Shown piece by piece: positions 4,965 to 58,423 of a stretch of DNA of 64,000 nt (position 1 is its first letter; each line of letters starts with the position of its first letter). Below the pieces are notes generated by a model, which made no database searches, was not told the DNA's origin, and worked only from the letters and a program-made list of their open reading frames with translations. Made by a program: the position numbers and the translations under genes. The DNA is from Escherichia phage vB_EcoM_G2248, in sequence record MK327932.1; one strand, 5' to 3'.

Positions 4965-6206
4965 ATGACTCATATTTTTACTGAACTGTTGCGGGAATCT
5001 ACTTCCTCAGTAGCTAACCAGACAGCGCGACCGCAACTATTATCACTGACTCGCGCGGTAAACAACCTGATTTTCTCTGATCTGGTGGCAATCCAACCAA
5101 CCGATCAACCAGTATCTGCATTGTACGGCCTACGTTATCTTAATCATGATGGTCAGATGACGTTCCGGACCGCTGCAACCTATGGCGGTGCTGTTGGTGA
5201 TCGTTCTGATATTGAAGAATTTTCACAAGAAAAATCCTATGATGTAGGAGCAAAATTTAAATCAGGCGATGTTGTATACGAAGTTGTAACCGCTGGTACA
5301 GTAGGTGCAGATGCAGCCACGCCCGAAGCCGCAATTTTTAAAGGTGTGATGACAAATCAGATTCGCTTCTATAGCGACTGTGCACCTGTAGAATACTTTG
5401 AAGATAAAAACACAGAGATCTCATCAACGTCAATGCAGTTTGATAAGTGGCAGGTTAATGTAGGTTCTCGTAAATTGAAAACCTCGTTCACCACTGAATT
5501 AATGCAGGATCTTGAAGCAAGCCAAATCAACTCTGAAAACTCTGTAATTGATCTTCTGGCTACTGTCGCTTCCGAAGAGATCAACAAAGATATTATACAG
5601 AAGTTGATCACTGTATCAACTCGCTATAAAATTAAAGGGATCACCCCTGATGGCGTACTTTCTCTAGTTAGCGTTCAGGACGCACCAAAACAAGCTCGCG
5701 AACTTTACCGCTATGCTTGCGAAATGAGCAATCAAATGTTGCGTACTTCCTCCTTTGCTGGCACATACGTTTTGGCGTCTTCTCGCGTGGTTGGTCTCCT
5801 GCAATCTACCGGATGGATGGAAGAAACCGACAATGCTCTAAGCGAAGGCCGTCTACGCTGTGGTCTGGAAGTGTACGCAGATACGGTAACTCCGTTTGAT
5901 TATATGGTCGTTGGCTGTAAACACATGATCGGTGATATGGAGAGTGTAGGTTCTCTTTTCTACTCCCCATACACAGAAGCCGATGGCGCTGGCGCATATA
6001 AGAGCGTAATCGATCCTAACAGCTTCCAACACCATGTAGCTATTATGAATCGTTATTCACTCTCTGTCAACCCATACACAGCAAAAGTTGACCAAGAAGA
6101 ACACCAGGTCATCAAGGGTGACGAGTGGGCTAAACTTGCTGGACGTTCAGAAATGTCCTACATTTTAGGTATCGAACTGCCACCGCTTGAGATTGACAAC
6201 TCTTAA
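4965..6206 (+). CDS. 24: Capsid vertex protein gp24
   Basis: From MTHIFTELLRESTSS... the translation parallels the T4 gp24 N-terminus and is gp23-like in fold; the track's 4797 start is an upstream in-frame extension. Confidence 0.85.
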   Translation: MTHIFTELLRESTSSVANQTARPQLLSLTRAVNNLIFSDLVAIQPTDQPVSALYGLRYLNHDGQMTFRTAATYGGAVGDRSDIEEFSQEKSYDVGAKFKSGDVVYEVVTAGTVGADAATPEAAIFKGVMTNQIRFYSDCAPVEYFEDKNTEISSTSMQFDKWQVNVGSRKLKTSFTTELMQDLEASQINSENSVIDLLATVASEEINKDIIQKLITVSTRYKIKGITPDGVLSLVSVQDAPKQARELYRYACEMSNQMLRTSSFAGTYVLASSRVVGLLQSTGWMEETDNALSEGRLRCGLEVYADTVTPFDYMVVGCKHMIGDMESVGSLFYSPYTEADGAGAYKSVIDPNSFQHHVAIMNRYSLSVNPYTAKVDQEEHQVIKGDEWAKLAGRSEMSYILGIELPPLEIDNS

Positions 6207-6794
6207 CTAAATATCTAACCAAGACAAGTCAGATCCGCCCAAGATTTTTTCGACGGCGGATCTATTTTCTTGATGATATAAGTTAAAACATGGTATCCCA
6301 TGTCTACGGGCAACATAAACAGCAATTCGAGTTCCGCCCGAAACAATACCATTAACTTCTTTCGCCCAAAATAACACACAATCTACAGGATCATCAAGTG
6401 TCTCACCTAAGACTTGAGCAACATTTCTAGAAAACAGATTTTGCATGTATAGCGGTATAGAACGAGGATTATCATAAACGTGTTCTAATTCATCCATCGC
6501 CAGATTCTTTTGCTCTAGAGTCTGCCACGCAATCACATCACGACCATTATGCTTATGATCGTAAAACTTCCAATTTGGAATGAAAATTTTTCTATAATCT
6601 GGGTCGTAATACTTCATGAAAGCATTGTCCATACCGTAAGCCCCTCCAGAATGCGCTACAACGCGATTTTCTGACAATACCCTCCCAATGGCACTAGCCA
6701 TTATCAAAATGTCGTTAGGCGCTTTTCTAGAGCCTATAAGAGCACATCTACGAAGTGGTTTTACTCCAAATAGATCTTGTAACTGGTCAAACAT
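6207..6794 (-). CDS. DprA/Smf-like (SLOG-type Rossmann) protein
   Basis: Motif pattern ALIGSRKAP...A..GR.L......VAHSGGAYGMD resembles the DprA/Smf core (GSR ... SGGA.G.D); ATG at 6794 with GGAGG RBS. Confidence 0.45.
   Translation of the reverse strand: MFDQLQDLFGVKPLRRCALIGSRKAPNDILIMASAIGRVLSENRVVAHSGGAYGMDNAFMKYYDPDYRKIFIPNWKFYDHKHNGRDVIAWQTLEQKNLAMDELEHVYDNPRSIPLYMQNLFSRNVAQVLGETLDDPVDCVLFWAKEVNGIVSGGTRIAVYVARRHGIPCFNLYHQENRSAVEKILGGSDLSWLDI
6231..6270 (+). terminator. Hairpin terminator after gene 24
   Basis: AGATCCGCC...GGCGGATCT inverted repeat followed by a T-rich tract; it overlaps the 3' end of the convergent minus-strand ORF. Confidence 0.5.
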
Positions 6795-33553: not shown

Positions 33554-33618
33554 GTTTGATTCTCCTAGTTCGTTTCGGTATGTGTGTATTATAGGGGAGT
33601 TTAACCTCACCTGTCAAC
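33554..33618 (-). promoter_or_regulatory. PeSL-like early promoter cassette
   Basis: Minus strand: TTGACA ... TATAAT, leader ACCGAAACGA, GGAGAATCAAACATG. Confidence 0.6.
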
Positions 33619-33626
33619 AACTTTTT

Positions 33627-33938
33627 TTAAAGTTTTTCCATGATAACGGTCATAATTACATCTTCTGCGCGAGCGGTCAGATTATCAGCGTCAGTATGTG
33701 GGCGGTTGGTTGTTACAGAGATAACACCGTTGCGCACTGGTTTGATATTGATATCAAGATGATCCGCGAAACGTTCGCCAGTTACAGAATGAATTTTGGT
33801 GTTAAATTCTTTTGCCAGTGCCTTGCGAACTTCACGAATCAGGATAGCGTTTTTCAGTTGGTTCTCCGCGCTCATGGTCTTCTGGGTGTTCATGGTTCCG
33901 TCGAAGTCAATCATTGGCAGCGTTACGATGTATTTCAT
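33627..33938 (-). CDS. Small hypothetical protein (~103 aa), paralog of 30076..30363
   Basis: Start at MKYIVTL after a PeSL cassette; shares VRKALAKEFNTK with the 30076 ORF. Confidence 0.45.
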   Translation of the reverse strand: MKYIVTLPMIDFDGTMNTQKTMSAENQLKNAILIREVRKALAKEFNTKIHSVTGERFADHLDINIKPVRNGVISVTTNRPHTDADNLTARAEDVIMTVIMEKL

Positions 33939-34052
33939 TTTTGATTCTCCGTTTAAGAAAGTGTGTTTCGTTTTGATGTGTGTAGTATAGGGGATACGTG
34001 ATCCCCTTCGTTTTGATGTGTGTAGTATAGGGGATACGTGATCCCCTGTCAA
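33939..34052 (-). promoter_or_regulatory. PeSL-like early promoter cassette containing a perfect 40-bp tandem duplication
   Basis: The unit TCGTTTTGATGTGTGTAGTATAGGGGATACGTGATCCCCT occurs twice in direct tandem (33968..34007 and 34008..34047), duplicating the -10 region and stem-loop; -35 TTGACA lies just beyond. Confidence 0.6.
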
Positions 34053-34065
34053 CAACTTTTTTGAA

Positions 34066-34410
34066 TTATTTTTTCATGAGCTTAATGGCTTCTTCCATAG
34101 CCAGCACATTTCGATAGTTAGGGTATCGTGTTAGATCGTCATACATTCGCTTAAGGGTGGAAACTTCCTCAAACTCTGGGTTTTCTAGATATAGTTGAAC
34201 AAATTGTTTCTCTACCATCTCGGCTTTTAGCTTGTCTGCTTGTTCCTGTTCATATGATTTCGTTGGACCCAACACCAACAAAATGATAAAGGTGATCAAC
34301 GGGCTAATGATCAATGATAGGATAACATAACCGATAACGCTACGGTTTAAACGGCTTGCGTACATGCCTACCAGGAAAACAAAAAGGATATAGATAAACA
34401 GAAAGAACAT
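34066..34410 (-). CDS. Small membrane protein (114 aa)
   Basis: Two strongly hydrophobic N-terminal segments (FFLFIYILFVFLVGM, VILSLIISPLITFIILLVLG). Confidence 0.5.
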   Translation of the reverse strand: MFFLFIYILFVFLVGMYASRLNRSVIGYVILSLIISPLITFIILLVLGPTKSYEQEQADKLKAEMVEKQFVQLYLENPEFEEVSTLKRMYDDLTRYPNYRNVLAMEEAIKLMKK

Positions 34411-34417
34411 ATAATGG

Positions 34418-34891
34418 TTACTCCTTATTTTCGCGCTCGTACTTTTCGAAATAAAATTCTACTGGCTGGTCATGAATTGACAGCAAGCCAAAGCGTTTAG
34501 CCGCTCGCAATCCCATATTGCGCTGAATGTACTTCTGGAAGTTCTCGCGTATACACTTACGCCAGTATTCTAAGCCCATACAGCTTTTATAAAGATTGCA
34601 TTGCACACACGCCGGATTCATGTTATCAAGTATATCATGTTCCGGTTTATGCATTCCTACAACCTTATACTTCCACGATCCATCATCATTACGGGCAATT
34701 CGTCCATTTTCATCATAGACTACCTTTGAGCGTCGCAATACTGGTTTGATGTGGTCTGCGTGCCAGCGATCCCCTAGTTCCTCGCCACAATAGGCACAAC
34801 GTCCACCATATTTCATTTTCAGGATCTGGCGTTGCTCTTTCTTTGACAATTTTTTAGGTTTAGGGGCTTTCGCCCCTTCATTATCACACAT
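34418..34891 (-). CDS. HNH endonuclease
   Basis: CAYCGEELGDRWHADHIKPV ... NMNPACVQCN: HNH motif with two CxxC pairs; overlaps the 3' end of the ligase gene. Confidence 0.65.
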   Translation of the reverse strand: MCDNEGAKAPKPKKLSKKEQRQILKMKYGGRCAYCGEELGDRWHADHIKPVLRRSKVVYDENGRIARNDDGSWKYKVVGMHKPEHDILDNMNPACVQCNLYKSCMGLEYWRKCIRENFQKYIQRNMGLRAAKRFGLLSIHDQPVEFYFEKYERENKE

Positions 34892-36386
34892 CGAATACCT
34901 CTTTTACTGTATTTGCAGTGGTCTTGTCGTAGCGAATACGTTTGATGATCGGGAGAAATAAAGAGAACTCAGGTTCATCTTCTTTACGTGATTTGCTGCG
35001 AATGTACCCGTTGCATGTCATCTCAATGACTTTTCCAATCAGGTTATGACGGTCAGCCCATAACATTTCTCGGTCGAGTTCATTTCGACGATCGAACGGA
35101 ATTACACGTTCAATACCATCATCACCTTTTTCGGTTGTGGTGTCGGTTAATCCCGATCCGGTGTTAGTCATCATTCGTCCGCACGCACTACGGACAGTAA
35201 AACCGCCTACCTTATTAGGATCTTTACTATGCGGATATACATCAACAATTTCAGCGTCGAAGTCAATCACTTCTTTAAATTTAACCTGGTCTTTACTGCG
35301 ACGATCTTCAAATACACCATGTAAATTTTTAAGGATAATACCTTCTAAGCCCATGTTTACATAGCGATGATATACTTCGCGAGCTTCATCTATATTGTTA
35401 ACTACAGTGTTTTCGATTATCTGAACACGAGGATCGTTAAGTTCTTCAACAATCTGTTTTAGTTCTTCGAATCGATCTTTATATTGCTTCGTTGCTTTCT
35501 CGTTTCCGTAATACACATCACGGTCGATAACATCCCAGACAGTATAAACAATACATTGGGCTTCTTCTTTTGGAATAGTTCCTTTAAGTGATTTGTTGAG
35601 GATACCATTTCCGGTCTGACGATCTGCAACAACGGATTCTTTTACTGCTTCCGCTACTGGCGTTAATGGCATTTCCTCTTCTTCAAATATCCATGACAGA
35701 GTACCATCATAAACGCTCTCAACGAAGTTCTGCGCTGGTGTTTGCGAAAGGGTAGGCATATATACCAATTCGCCATCTAGAACAATTCCACGGCCTCGTA
35801 GACGCTCTAAAACCGCAAACAAATCATCAAGTCCTTGATAGGTATTACCTGAGCGGGTATAGATTGCTAATGTTTCCCCGTCAATATCAGCCATACCACG
35901 AGCGCCATCGCTTTTAAGTTGTGCATACGCCGGATACTTGATATTAGCAATAGTCTTATCAGAACATGACGATGCAAGGTGACACGGTTGCTGGGGGATC
36001 AGTTTCTTCCATACCTTGTTTGCAGTGGTAGCGGAACAACCACATTCCAGATCACGATTCAGGACCATCATTGCAACTTTAGCATCATCTTCTGACAAGC
36101 AAGTCAGAGTATCGGTAACTAGCTGTAATGCTGCGTTACCAGTTACTTGACGCGTGGCAAGTTTATTTTTAAAGACCTGTAATGCACCGGATAAAGACAA
36201 TACAGACGAATAACGCGATGGTTTATCGTATTTCTTTACGCCAAACGTAACCTGTTTGCAATATGCCAGATAAAAGCATTCTTTCAGTGTTTCATTGCTT
36301 GCAGATTCTTTCAGGATCTTTTCTTTCAGCGATGTTTTGTCTGTTGCTGCAAGCTGGTTAATGATATTAAGAATTGACATTTTCAC
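34884..36386 (-). CDS. 30: ATP-dependent DNA ligase gp30
   Basis: 500 aa; adenylation motif AQLKSDGARG (KxDG); position and size match T4 gene 30. Confidence 0.85.
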   Translation of the reverse strand: MKMSILNIINQLAATDKTSLKEKILKESASNETLKECFYLAYCKQVTFGVKKYDKPSRYSSVLSLSGALQVFKNKLATRQVTGNAALQLVTDTLTCLSEDDAKVAMMVLNRDLECGCSATTANKVWKKLIPQQPCHLASSCSDKTIANIKYPAYAQLKSDGARGMADIDGETLAIYTRSGNTYQGLDDLFAVLERLRGRGIVLDGELVYMPTLSQTPAQNFVESVYDGTLSWIFEEEEMPLTPVAEAVKESVVADRQTGNGILNKSLKGTIPKEEAQCIVYTVWDVIDRDVYYGNEKATKQYKDRFEELKQIVEELNDPRVQIIENTVVNNIDEAREVYHRYVNMGLEGIILKNLHGVFEDRRSKDQVKFKEVIDFDAEIVDVYPHSKDPNKVGGFTVRSACGRMMTNTGSGLTDTTTEKGDDGIERVIPFDRRNELDREMLWADRHNLIGKVIEMTCNGYIRSKSRKEDEPEFSLFLPIIKRIRYDKTTANTVKEVFDV

Positions 36387-37052: not shown

Positions 37053-37071
37053 GGCGGGATTATTACCCGCC
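37053..37071 (-). terminator. Hairpin terminator after gene 31 (minus strand)
   Basis: GGCGGGATTATTACCCGCC with a T-rich tract on the minus strand. Confidence 0.55.
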
Positions 37072-37406: not shown

Positions 37407-37447
37407 AATTTTATTACCTCTTCAAATCAATACAGTTTAATGATGAA

Positions 37448-47558: not shown

Positions 47559-47626
47559 ATTACCTCACTTCATATTTTAGCAGGAACAAGTTTATCCTCC
47601 ATATTGGGGGCTTTCGCCCCCTTTGT

Positions 47627-48847
47627 TTATACTGCCATTTGAGCGGTGATTGCTGGATGGCTTTGATAGTTGTGAATTTTAAAGTCTTTCGGAGTCTTTG
47701 TCAATACCTCATCTAAAGATTTAAATTCCGGCAACTCAATTGTTGGTTTATCAAACGGAACACGGCTTAACTGTTCCATAACTTGATCAAAATGGTTTTT
47801 GTAAATGTGAGTATCTCCACCAGAGAAAATCAGTTCTCCTACCTCAAGATCACACATTTTCGCTATGATGTGAGTTAACAGCGCATAGCTGGCGACGTTA
47901 AAGGGCAAGCCCAAAAAGCTGTCTACGCTTCGCTGAAACCACATACAAGACAGTTTACCTTCATTGACGTAGAATTGCACGAAAGGATGACATACACCTA
48001 ATACAGCATTATGTGTTCCTTGTACGTTCCATGAGTCAATAATGATCCGGCGATCCGTTGGATTGTTTTTAATTTGTTCAATCACGTTTTGTAACTGGTC
48101 TTCCCAAATCTTCTGGCGATAGACATATTCTTCATCGTCTTTAGGGCTTGATGTGTCTACGTCCATACTAACAAAGATCGTGGTATCCGGTGCTAAAATG
48201 TCACCGCCCAGATATTCATTATCAAGCAGATAACCGAAATAACCATCATCTACCCATTCCTGGAATCCCCACAAGCAATATGCATCATTAACAAAATTAG
48301 ATTGAGTCTTCCAGTGGTCTGCTACCAGAATATAATCAAACTCTTCATAACGCATACCACGCCAGATAGCACATAAACGGTCTTCTGTGTCGTTGGTTGG
48401 TGTAAAGTCTTCTACCCACGGGTGCTTAAATGTATGTGTATATTTGCTCTTAACGCGCTTAATTTTGATTTCACCATGTGGATGAATCGGTTTTCGTCGC
48501 CACGCCATACCATACATATTGCCGACATTATAACCATTGAATCGCAAGGGATTCTTTTCTTTCATATCAAGACAGTTGCCGCGCCAAATATCAAAGGCTT
48601 CCTCGTCAAACTTGCCGCGTGTAATTTCCTGTAAGCGACGGCGGTCAAGTGATCCCTCCATAAACCATAGCAATTCGCCAATTACAGAGGCTGTAGCCAT
48701 CTTTTTAGTGGTCAGTAATGGGAAACCCTTGCTTAAATCAATTCGCATCTCTGCGCCGAATTTAGAGAGCGTACCTACCCCCGTGCGGTCTTCACGAGGA
48801 CAGCCATTATCAAGAACATCACGCAATAGTTTCAAATATTCTTTCAT
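47627..48847 (-). CDS. td: Thymidylate synthase with ~115-aa internal insertion
   Basis: N- and C-terminal thirds align with ThyA (DRTGVGT, CHPFVQFYV, LGLPFNVASYALL), but a ~115-aa aromatic-rich segment is inserted between the YG..WR motif and the DQL..V...K..P.DRR motif, giving 406 aa. Confidence 0.75.
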   Translation of the reverse strand: MKEYLKLLRDVLDNGCPREDRTGVGTLSKFGAEMRIDLSKGFPLLTTKKMATASVIGELLWFMEGSLDRRRLQEITRGKFDEEAFDIWRGNCLDMKEKNPLRFNGYNVGNMYGMAWRRKPIHPHGEIKIKRVKSKYTHTFKHPWVEDFTPTNDTEDRLCAIWRGMRYEEFDYILVADHWKTQSNFVNDAYCLWGFQEWVDDGYFGYLLDNEYLGGDILAPDTTIFVSMDVDTSSPKDDEEYVYRQKIWEDQLQNVIEQIKNNPTDRRIIIDSWNVQGTHNAVLGVCHPFVQFYVNEGKLSCMWFQRSVDSFLGLPFNVASYALLTHIIAKMCDLEVGELIFSGGDTHIYKNHFDQVMEQLSRVPFDKPTIELPEFKSLDEVLTKTPKDFKIHNYQSHPAITAQMAV

Positions 48848-58389: not shown

Positions 58390-58423
58390 TTAAAAGGGGG
58401 CGAAAGCCCCCTATGGGGTTATT

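What the first reader, a model, noticed from the sequence alone, without database searches (positions are those of the whole stretch)
34418..34891. HNH endonuclease gene overlapping the 3' end of DNA ligase
A 157-aa HNH protein (CAYC ... HADH ... CVQCN) begins 8 nt before the ligase stop. A GGGGCTTTCGCCCC hairpin lies inside its first codons, and similar GGGGGC-loop-GCCCCC hairpins recur at 47603 and 58399. Free-standing HNH genes in T-even phages are usually mobile homing endonucleases, so this may be a recent insertion next to an essential gene.
Basis: partly seen in the sequence, partly recalled or inferred. Interest (0 to 1): 0.4.

Follow-up and report, generated by a model that had tools for sequence, protein, structure and literature searches.

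The report
Ancient HNH nuclease gene behind ligase
A small DNA-cutting-enzyme gene sits directly behind the DNA ligase gene of this RB49-like (T4-type) phage, but it is an old, fixed and already annotated resident of the whole phage group, not a recently arrived mobile element.

Summary
A 157-aa HNH ORF lies on the minus strand at 34891->34418. Its ATG overlaps the gene 30 ligase stop by 8 nt. A GGGGCGAAAGCCCC hairpin covers codons 6-10, and two more copies lie at 47606-47621 and 58396-58411.

The window is a Krischvirus. The protein is identical to RB49 ORF212 (NP_891783), annotated as an HNH endonuclease and listed as a putative mobile element in 2006 and 2010.

The "recent insertion" reading fails:
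- The gene is at this site in 58 of 58 Krischvirus genome records.
- It is also there in four metagenomic lineages whose ligases are only 72-51% identical. HNH divergence tracks ligase divergence.
- pN/pS is 0.025, against 0.033 for ligase.
- It is absent only in the next clade, where ligase identity is 48% or less.

It is therefore an anciently acquired, vertically inherited, selectively maintained zinc-finger HNH nuclease, co-expressed with ligase. Its biological role is unknown.

One modestly new point concerns the hairpin. It is a 24-nt in-frame insertion, and its stem is kept by two compensatory changes that alter amino acids, so an RNA structure is under selection.

The real local polymorphisms are the downstream 114-aa ORF (21 of 58 records) and a different HNH gene found in ECD7.

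Interest is low to moderate.

The parts
34418..34891 (-). HNH nuclease gene of 157 aa. The protein is identical to RB49 ORF212 / NP_891783.
   Evidence: ORF. Pfam HNH. phrog_2118. 100% aa identity to RB49.
34586..34798 (-). Catalytic core, codons 32-102. It holds the Cys4 zinc site (C32, C35, C95, C98), the general-base pair D46-H47, N90, the metal ligand N99 and K102.
   Evidence: All of these residues are invariant in a 75-member family alignment (add 1 to the printed numbering). The AF2 model has pLDDT 91.4.
34884..34891 (-). 8-nt start/stop overlap ATGTGTGA between HNH and ligase, allowing translational coupling.
   Evidence: The overlap is identical in 12 Krischvirus sequences. A start/stop overlap is also found in L012 and L035 (TAATG) and in L038 (23 nt).
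34898..34901 (-). Shine-Dalgarno GAGG for HNH, lying inside the ligase coding sequence.
   Evidence: Read from the sequence.
34862..34885 (-). 24-nt in-frame insertion (codons 3-10, DNEGAKAP) that carries the hairpin. It is absent in the L012/L013 lineage, which reads MC|KPKKL.
34862..34877 (-). RNA hairpin A-GGGGC-GAAA-GCCCC-U with a 6-bp stem, a GNRA tetraloop and a predicted free energy of -11.6 kcal/mol.
   Evidence: Two compensatory pair changes against L035 are shown.
34884..36380 (-). Gene 30 ATP-dependent DNA ligase of 498 aa. It is the upstream partner and shares a transcript with HNH.
   Evidence: Pfam PF01068. RB49 annotation. No promoter-like site scoring 10 or more of 12 lies between the two genes.
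47606..47621 (-). Paralogous hairpin GGGGGCGAAAGCCCCC in the td-nrdA intergenic region, 5 nt after the td stop.
58396..58411 (+). Paralogous hairpin GGGGGCGAAAGCCCCC in the gp34-gp35 intergenic region, 6 nt after the gp34 stop.
34066..34410 (-). Downstream 114-aa membrane-type ORF (RB49 ORF211). This is the element that is actually polymorphic at this locus.
   Evidence: Present in 21 and absent in 37 of 58 genome records. Absent in ECD7. Reported as RB49-unique relative to phi1 in PMC2839356.

Best explanation
This is an anciently acquired, now fixed and vertically inherited gene for a small zinc-finger HNH (beta-beta-alpha-metal, 'H-N-N') DNA nuclease. It was inserted once, directly behind gene 30 (DNA ligase), in the common ancestor of the Krischvirus-like clade.

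Shown:
- The gene has no promoter of its own.
- Its start codon overlaps or abuts the ligase stop in four of five lineages. It is therefore made from the ligase message, probably by translational coupling.
- The catalytic residues (D46-H47, N90, N99) and the Cys4 zinc site are invariant.
- The gene evolves under purifying selection as strong as that on ligase.

Inferred:
- The protein is an active divalent-metal-dependent DNA nicking or cleaving enzyme.
- It has been kept because it is useful. I put about 0.55 on a domesticated accessory nuclease of phage DNA metabolism or of attack on non-self DNA, made together with the enzyme that can reseal nicks. I put about 0.3 on a long-fixed homing-type endonuclease retained for excluding competitors.

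The hairpin in codons 6-10 is a separate, later 24-nt in-frame insertion. It is a stable GNRA-tetraloop RNA stem-loop of the kind this phage also places just after the stop codons of td and gp34. Its stem is maintained by compensatory substitutions at the cost of amino-acid changes. It most likely acts on the RNA, either as a 3' barrier that stabilises the ligase message or as a damper on independent initiation of HNH translation. That function is inferred, not shown.
For: Identity:
- The window is 98-99% identical to RB49-type Krischvirus genomes.
- The protein is 100% identical to RB49 NP_891783, annotated 'HNH endonuclease'.

Fixation:
- The gene is present in 58 of 58 genome-length records at the same site. 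The 59th hit is a 1.5-kb fragment.

Deep synteny:
- Metagenomic relatives with ligase 72% (L035), 71% (L012), 60% (L037) and 51% (L038, a 169-kb contig) identical all carry the homolog immediately downstream of ligase. HNH identity is 87, 70, 58 and 60%.
- The pairwise identity matrices of the two genes are congruent.

Absence outside the clade:
- Ligase 48% and 46% identical: ligase is followed by a 63-aa ORF and then alt.
- Ligase 41-44% identical: no HNH within 3 kb.

Selection:
- Among 10 Krischvirus genomes, pN/pS is 0.025 for HNH and 0.033 for ligase, with similar pS (0.13 and 0.11).
- Against L035, pS is 0.83 (saturated), and dN is 0.109 for HNH against 0.230 for ligase.

Active site and fold:
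- Invariant residues are listed.
- The AF2 model has pLDDT 91.4.
- The best solved relative is the Mn-dependent Gme HNH nicking endonuclease 4H9D (profile E 3e-5). Foldseek top hits are Cas9 HNH, 4H9D and Cap5.

Expression:
- No promoter-like site scoring 10 or more of 12 lies between ligase and HNH.
- A GAGG Shine-Dalgarno and the 8-nt overlap are present.

Hairpin:
- 3 copies against 0 expected, all in sense orientation.
- Predicted free energy is -11.6 kcal/mol, and -11.2 in L035.
- 2 of 6 stem pairs changed on both sides, and 96.7% of cells are paired.
- The 24-nt segment is absent from L012/L013.
Against: - No biochemical or genetic data exist for this protein or its subfamily. Nuclease activity, substrate and benefit to the phage are all inferred.
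- Family members occur at unrelated positions in unrelated phages, so the family is horizontally mobile over long times. A selfish origin, and possibly continued selfish maintenance, cannot be excluded.
- Foldseek E-values to solved HNH domains are weak (0.05 or higher) and TM-scores are 0.3-0.37. The roughly 40-residue insert and the C-terminal helical part have no solved counterpart.
- The four deep lineages are single metagenomic contigs. HNH-less members of the clade may simply be unsampled.
- One Krischvirus (Cognac) carries a stem-breaking C->A change in the hairpin, so the hairpin is not indispensable.
- The hairpin starts at +15 and leaves the SD and AUG unpaired in the MFE fold, so an effect on initiation is uncertain.
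Confidence: 0.75

Rival explanations
1. This is the first reader's view: an active, recently inserted free-standing homing endonuclease gene. It spreads by cutting the ligase region of HNH-less relatives and being copied in by repair.
For: - The gene is a free-standing HNH next to a conserved essential gene.
- It has been listed as a putative mobile element or HEG in PMC1524935 and PMC2993671 Table 5.
- Family members are scattered in unrelated contexts.
- Truly polymorphic HEGs exist in the genus, such as the ECD7 203-aa HNH between gp31 and 31.1.
Against: - The gene is present in 58 of 58 genomes, and in four lineages down to 51% ligase identity.
- No empty site exists among relatives close enough for homologous repair. 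The nearest HNH-less ligases are 48% identical or less.
- pN/pS is 0.025.
- Synonymous sites are saturated against L035.
- The ligase 3' flank is less conserved than the HNH, so there is no co-conversion tract.
- No recognisable sequence-specific DNA-binding module was found by Pfam.
Confidence: 0.07
2. The protein is a structure-specific or repair nuclease. On this view it acts like a second endonuclease VII, or as a nickase that works together with ligase in recombination or repair, or that acts on stem-loop DNA such as the PeSL promoter cassettes bordering the adjacent hyperplastic region.
For: - The residue pattern matches T4 EndoVII: CxxC ... HxDH ... CxxCN, and both proteins are 157 aa.
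- Weak PHROG hits are labelled endonuclease VII (phrog_1035 E 1e-9, phrog_2914 E 6e-7).
- BFVD neighbours are labelled recombination endonuclease VII.
- Coupling to ligase is conserved.
- The gene sits at the border of the PeSL-rich variable region (PMC2839356).
Against: - RB49 has its own gene 49 EndoVII.
- There is no Pfam Endonuclease_7 match at E 0.01 or better.
- The Foldseek match to 1E7L has probability 0.16.
- Family members in other phages are not next to ligases.
Confidence: 0.12
3. The protein is an HK97 gp74-type HNH accessory factor of the DNA packaging terminase.
For: - In Bas77-type siphoviruses the homolog lies about 0.8 kb upstream of the large terminase gene, at the genome start.
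- The closest solved relative, 4H9D, belongs to the small phage-type HNH proteins.
Against: - The gene here lies in an early-gene block far from genes 16/17.
- T4-type phages package by headful mechanism with gp17's own nuclease (established knowledge).
- Other homologs lie in nin, ea or replication regions.
- hhalign of the family profile against HK97 gp74 gives probability 0.7%.
Confidence: 0.03
4. The gene is a decaying relic with no function, and the hairpin is a chance GC-rich palindrome.
For: - HEG relics are common in T4-type genomes (PMC2993671).
- One metagenomic scaffold encodes a truncated version (P0004).
Against: - The ORF is intact in all genomes, the active site is invariant, and pN/pS is 0.025.
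- Hairpin: 3 identical copies against 0 expected, with compensatory changes.
- The P0004 tail lies at a scaffold end and matches nothing in the window, so it is probably an assembly chimera.
Confidence: 0.03

Closest known systems
RB49 ORF212 (RB49p212, NP_891783.1) and its Krischvirus orthologs (phi1 ORF212, JSE, ECD7 gp207 and others)
   Same: The amino-acid sequence is identical. The position and the 8-nt overlap with gene 30 are the same. It is annotated as an HNH endonuclease and has been counted among putative mobile elements or HEGs (PMC1524935, PMC2993671).
   Different: Nothing differs; this is the same gene. The literature label 'putative mobile element' is not borne out by its distribution.
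Free-standing HNH homing endonucleases of T4-type phages (T4 MobA-E, Aeh1 MobE, RB49 ORF040 AP2-HNH, ECD7 HNH_2)
   Same: All are HNH catalytic modules encoded by free-standing genes placed beside conserved essential genes. All are expressed from the neighbour's transcript, and several have RNA hairpins near the start of the gene (PMC3014915).
   Different: - Those genes are sporadic even among close relatives. This one is fixed across a deep clade.
- It lacks an AP2 or other recognisable DNA-binding module.
- Its hairpin does not sequester the RBS.
- No empty target allele is known.
Gme HNH, the Mn-dependent nicking endonuclease of Geobacter metallireducens (PDB 4H9D)
   Same: It is the best solved relative by sequence profile (E 3e-5) and ranks second by fold. 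It is a small CxxC...DH...CxxCN zinc-finger HNH.
   Different: It is only about 19% identical. It lacks the roughly 40-residue insert between DH and N and the conserved C-terminal helical part (W110, R111, R129, G135-L136, F146-x-F148-E149).
HK97 gp74, terminase-associated HNH
   Same: Both are small phage HNH proteins.
   Different: There is no profile similarity beyond the motif (hhalign probability 0.7%), and this gene is not next to packaging genes.
T4 endonuclease VII (gp49)
   Same: Both are 157 aa, have a Cys4 zinc site and share the pattern HxDH ... CxxCN.
   Different: There is no Pfam Endonuclease_7 match, the fold match is poor, and RB49 carries a separate gene 49.
Stable tetraloop hairpins in intercistronic regions of T4 mRNAs (Tuerk et al. 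1988, cited from my own knowledge)
   Same: Both are short G/C stems closed by an unusually stable tetraloop, placed just after stop codons on the sense strand.
   Different: Here one copy lies inside the coding sequence of the next gene, because the two genes overlap. The loop is GAAA rather than UUCG. The function is untested.

Membership tests
HNH / beta-beta-alpha-metal nuclease superfamily (Pfam PF01844) | A profile match above the curated threshold. | tested here: met
   27 bits against a cut-off of 21.4. phrog_2118 has E 2.7e-54.
HNH / beta-beta-alpha-metal nuclease superfamily (Pfam PF01844) | Catalytic residues: a D-H general-base pair, a structural Asn and a metal-ligand Asn or His. 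| tested here: met
   D46, H47, N90 and N99 are invariant in 75 family members.
HNH / beta-beta-alpha-metal nuclease superfamily (Pfam PF01844) | A Cys4 zinc finger flanking the motif, as in the zinc-finger subclass. | tested here: met
   C32, C35, C95 and C98 are invariant.
HNH / beta-beta-alpha-metal nuclease superfamily (Pfam PF01844) | The beta-beta-alpha fold. | tested here: inconclusive
   The AF2 model is confident (pLDDT 91.4), and its top PDB neighbours are HNH domains. However, E is 0.05 or higher and TM-scores are 0.3-0.37.
HNH / beta-beta-alpha-metal nuclease superfamily (Pfam PF01844) | Metal-dependent nuclease activity. | not testable with these tools
   This needs purified protein.
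Mobile free-standing homing endonuclease gene | Presence/absence polymorphism among closely related genomes. | tested here: not met
   Present in 58 of 58 Krischvirus records and in 4 of 4 divergent lineages.
Mobile free-standing homing endonuclease gene | A cognate HEG-less allele similar enough for homology-directed repair. | tested here: not met
   The nearest HNH-less ligase loci are 48% aa identical or less.
Mobile free-standing homing endonuclease gene | Co-conversion, meaning elevated identity of the flanking host gene. | tested here: not met
   The ligase 3' end is 54-66% nt identical to L035, against 70-81% for the HNH.
Mobile free-standing homing endonuclease gene | Relatives at unrelated loci in unrelated genomes, showing horizontal mobility over long time. 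| tested here: met
   Morganella vB_Mm5, Bas77, HK225, Sasha, g341c and prophages.
Mobile free-standing homing endonuclease gene | Site-specific cleavage of the empty allele and biased inheritance in crosses. | not testable with these tools
   This needs an experiment.
HK97 gp74-type terminase-associated HNH | Adjacency to terminase or portal genes, and similarity to gp74. | tested here: not met
   The gene lies in the 31-30.3-30 early block. hhalign probability is 0.7%.
T4 endonuclease VII (Pfam Endonuclease_7) | A profile match, and being the only such gene in the genome. | tested here: not met
   No Pfam hit. RB49 has gene 49.
Conserved structured RNA element (the hairpin) | Base pairs maintained by compensatory substitutions. 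| tested here: met
   2 of 6 pairs changed on both sides, and 96.7% of cells are paired against 23-67% in slid controls. Only 5 sequences and 3 orthologous variants were available, so the support is modest.

The most novel reading that the evidence does not exclude
The HNH has been domesticated as a functional partner of DNA ligase in the Krischvirus clade. It might be a nick-and-reseal or non-self-DNA attack module. Alternatively, it might be the nuclease that starts the PeSL-mediated shuffling of the adjacent hyperplastic region. On this reading, the coding-embedded GNRA hairpin is a dedicated RNA element that sets the ligase-to-nuclease expression ratio.
Probability: 0.15. Interest if true: 0.55.

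Novelty: already known. Interest (0 to 1): 0.22.

Why it matters
The practical value is corrective. A gene that two reviews count among 'putative homing endonucleases' of RB49-type phages behaves as a stably inherited gene, conserved as strongly as ligase. Free-standing HNH genes in T4-type genomes should therefore not be assumed mobile without a distribution test.

If the enzyme proved to have a phage-beneficial role linked to ligase, it would be a clean example of homing-endonuclease domestication.

The hairpin is a small, tidy case of an RNA structure constraining a protein-coding sequence, since compensatory changes force amino-acid changes.

None of this opens a long-standing question.

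Tried and rejected
- IMG/VR scans with the HNH and with ligase returned only two Krischvirus contigs plus distant hits. They were not useful for intermediates. The large protein database plus contig look-ups were needed instead.
- A sequence search of PDB with the single protein gave nothing below E 0.18. Only the family profile reached 4H9D.
- The idea that the family is the terminase-associated gp74 type was suggested by Bas77. It was rejected after other contexts were seen and after hhalign against HK97 gp74.
- The idea that it replaces EndoVII was rejected because RB49 has gene 49.
- The apparent 59th record, with ligase but no HNH, is only a 1.5-kb GenBank fragment.
- P0004 looked like a naturally truncated HNH. 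Its divergent tail lies at the end of a scaffold and matches nothing in the window or Pfam. I treated it as a probable assembly chimera, but this is unresolved.
- An alternative start at TTG (L15, the position of the family-typical MKLSK start) was rejected. It has no Shine-Dalgarno, and the upstream ATG and its frame are conserved in L012 and L035.
- The NCBIfam retron-HNH hit (16 bits against a cut-off of 52) is noise.
- A terminator role for the hairpin was rejected because no U-tract follows any of the three copies.

Full report
**What is at the site**

The ORF lies at 34418..34891 on the minus strand and encodes 157 aa from an ATG. Its ATG (34891-34889) overlaps the TGA of the upstream 498-aa ORF (34884..36380) by 8 nt, ATGTGTGA. 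A GAGG Shine-Dalgarno lies at 34898-34901.

The upstream ORF is an ATP-dependent DNA ligase (PF01068, E 2.8e-22). The gene before it is gp30.3 (PF08010).

The 157-aa protein matches Pfam HNH above threshold (27 bits against 21.4). It matches PHROG 2118 'HNH endonuclease' at E 2.7e-54.

The hairpin is real and non-random. GGGGC-N4-GCCCC occurs three times in 64 kb against 0.00 expected. These are the only all-G/C 5-bp-stem, 4-nt-loop hairpins in the window.

**Identity of the window and prior knowledge**

The region is 98-99% identical to RB49-type phages of the genus Krischvirus, Straboviridae. The protein is 100% identical to RB49 NP_891783.1, annotated 'HNH endonuclease'.

- Nolan et al. 2006 list RB49ORF212c under 'putative mobile DNA elements' (PMC1524935).
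- Petrov et al. 2010 count one 'other HNH' among the putative HEGs of RB49 and of phi1 (PMC2993671).

Both the gene and the homing-endonuclease idea are therefore already in the record.

**Test of 'recent, mobile insertion'**

Within the genus:

- The HNH sequence is found in 58 phage records, all at 96% nt identity or more, each once, always under 'HNH | DNA ligase'.
- The ligase region hits 59 records. The extra one is AJ550428, a 1.5-kb RB49 fragment.
- So 58 of 58 genome-length records carry the gene at this site. That is about 52 distinct phages after GenBank/RefSeq duplicates are removed.
- The first 105 nt around the start are nearly invariant in 12 sequences.

Beyond the genus, I searched the large protein collection with the ligase and looked up the contigs of the intermediate hits.

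| Locus | Ligase identity | What follows ligase | HNH identity |
|---|---|---|---|
| L035/L036 | 72% | HNH homolog, directly | 87% |
| L012/L013 | 71% (C-terminal half) | HNH homolog, directly | 70% |
| L037 | 60% | HNH homolog, directly | 58% |
| L038/L039 (169-kb contig) | 51% | HNH homolog, directly | 60% |
| P0125, P0128 | 48% and 46% | 63-aa ORF, then alt; no HNH | none |
| Aeromonas-type T4-likes | 41-44% | no HNH within 3 kb | none |

All-against-all identities for the two genes are congruent. The simplest history is one insertion behind gene 30 in the ancestor of this clade, followed by vertical co-inheritance.

**Selection**

- Among ten Krischvirus genomes, summed pN/pS is 0.025 for HNH and 0.033 for ligase. 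Synonymous diversity is similar (0.13 and 0.11).
- Against L035, synonymous sites are saturated (pS 0.83). dN is 0.109 for HNH and 0.230 for ligase. The high protein identity is therefore constraint, not recent transfer.
- Nucleotide identity to L035 is 54-66% in the last 350 nt of ligase and 70-81% across the HNH. There is no co-conversion tract.
- Base composition is close to that of the neighbours: GC is 43.5% for HNH, 41.2% for ligase and 40.8% for the window.

A fixed selfish endonuclease with no empty sites would be expected to decay. This gene has not.

**The protein**

A 75-member alignment (A1) shows these invariant residues, in full-protein numbering: R21, C32, A33, Y34, C35, G36, L39, D46, H47, N90, P93, C95, C98, N99, K102, R111, F146, F148 and E149.

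This amounts to a Cys4 zinc site, a D-H general base, a structural Asn and an Asn metal ligand (an 'H-N-N' variant). It also includes a conserved C-terminal helical segment.

- AlphaFold2 with this alignment gives pLDDT 91.4.
- The family profile reaches one solved structure, the Mn-dependent Gme HNH nicking endonuclease 4H9D (E 3e-5).
- Foldseek ranks Cas9 HNH domains, 4H9D and Cap5 first, but weakly: E is 0.05 or higher and TM-scores are 0.3-0.37. The roughly 40-residue insert and the C-terminal part have no solved counterpart.
- BFVD returns only family members and generic phage HNH proteins.

Two other families were ruled out:

- HK97 gp74 type: hhalign probability is 0.7%. Homologs in other phages sit in nin, ea or replication regions as well as near a terminase.
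- EndoVII: there is no Pfam Endonuclease_7 hit, and RB49 has its own gene 49.

The only other T4-type phage seen with a homolog, Morganella vB_Mm5 (50% identical), has it at a different locus. The family is therefore horizontally mobile over long times, although it is stable here.

**The N-terminus and the hairpin**

Family members start MKLSK. That corresponds to residues 13-17 (KKLSK) of the window protein. The start regions in the clade lineages are as follows.

| Lineage | N-terminal sequence or start position | Relation to the ligase stop |
|---|---|---|
| L037 | family-type start (MALSKK) | 16 nt after it |
| L038 | start inside ligase | overlaps ligase by 23 nt |
| L012 | MC\|KPKKL | TAATG overlap |
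| L035 | MSETNEGTKVPKPKKL | TAATG overlap |
| Krischvirus | MCDNEGAKAPKPKKL | 8-nt overlap |

The start was evidently moved upstream to the ligase stop. A 24-nt in-frame segment carrying the hairpin was then added in the Krischvirus/L035 branch.

The hairpin reads A-GGGGC-GAAA-GCCCC-U in Krischvirus (-11.6 kcal/mol). It reads GGGGAC-GAAA-GUCCCC in L035 (-11.2 kcal/mol). Both are predicted in the local MFE fold.

Two of the six pairs differ by changes on both sides: G-C to A-U, and A-U to G-C. These changes alter the peptide (A7T and A9V). Overall 96.7% of cells pair, against 23-67% when the partner is slid. Cognac has a stem-breaking C->A change (A9D).

The two other copies lie 5-6 nt after the stop codons of td and gp34. 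All three read GAAA on the sense strand, and none is followed by a U-tract.

I read them as RNA elements of the stable-tetraloop intercistronic type known from T4 (Tuerk 1988, cited from my own knowledge). They most plausibly act as 3' decay barriers. For the HNH copy, the hairpin may also limit ribosome loading independent of ligase translation. RNA hairpins that reduce translation are documented for mobE and proposed for segB (PMC3014915). There, however, they sequester the RBS. Here the SD and AUG are left free.

**Verdict**

The best-supported description is a long-fixed, selectively maintained zinc-finger HNH nuclease gene, translationally linked to ligase, whose role is unknown. Between two possible reasons for its retention, I favour domestication (about 0.55) over retention as a competitor-excluding homing-type enzyme (about 0.3).

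The gene is already annotated and already discussed as a putative HEG. The new elements are modest: the deep ligase-HNH synteny, the strength of constraint, and the covarying coding-embedded hairpin.

Noticed in passing
window 34066-34410 (-): The 114-aa membrane-type ORF directly downstream of the HNH (RB49 ORF211, phrog_25625) is the real presence/absence polymorphism at this locus. It is present in 21 and absent in 37 of 58 Krischvirus records. The breakpoint lies inside the last codons of the HNH, so the HNH C-terminus is ...ERENKE with the ORF and ...EREHQEK without it. Arbiol et al. 2010 describe ORF211 as a homolog of a Vibrio superintegron ORF.
   Followed up: partly
window 33967-34072 (-), also 33569-33637: These are early promoter plus stem-loop cassettes of the PeSL type: TTGACA, a 17-nt spacer containing GGGGATCACGTATCCCC, then TATACT. 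A perfect 40-nt tandem duplication (33967-34006 and 34007-34046) lacks the -35 box in its first copy. The copy number varies among genomes, which shows as partial coverage. L035 carries the same motif after its HNH.
   Followed up: partly
L002 (ECD7) 5655-6266; corresponds to window ~37410-37445, between gp31 and 31.1: ECD7 carries a 203-aa HNH endonuclease gene ('HNH_2') between gp31 and gp31.1. It is absent from the window and from RB49. This is a genuinely polymorphic free-standing HEG in the same gene block.
   Followed up: no
window 47627-48847 (-): The thymidylate synthase gene encodes 406 aa instead of the usual ~280. The Pfam Thymidylat_synt match is split into two stretches by an insert of roughly 130 residues (about residues 110-248) with no Pfam match.
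   Followed up: partly
window 47606-47621 (-) and 58396-58411 (+): Two intergenic copies of GGGGGCGAAAGCCCCC lie just after the td and gp34 stop codons, one in an early and one in a late transcription unit. No copy occurs in RB49 30-62 kb. Their function is unknown.
   Followed up: partly
L044 6001-6504 (ENA scaffold_8678): A Krischvirus-like scaffold encodes HNH residues 1-75 fused to an unrelated 92-aa tail. The junction lies ~500 nt from the scaffold end, and the tail matches nothing in the window or Pfam. It is either an assembly chimera or a natural disruption of the HNH.
   Followed up: partly
L035 607-1047: The 72%-ligase relative carries a 146-aa ORF with a weak GIY-YIG match just upstream of rnlA. 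It is a possible seg-like homing endonuclease with no counterpart at that position in the window.
   Followed up: no
window 37053-37071 (-): A terminator-like hairpin, GGCGGG-N7-CCCGCC followed by a T-rich tail, lies between gp31 and the small ORF upstream of 30.3. No strong promoter-like site lies between it and ligase, so it is unclear how the 30.3-ligase-HNH unit is transcribed.
   Followed up: no
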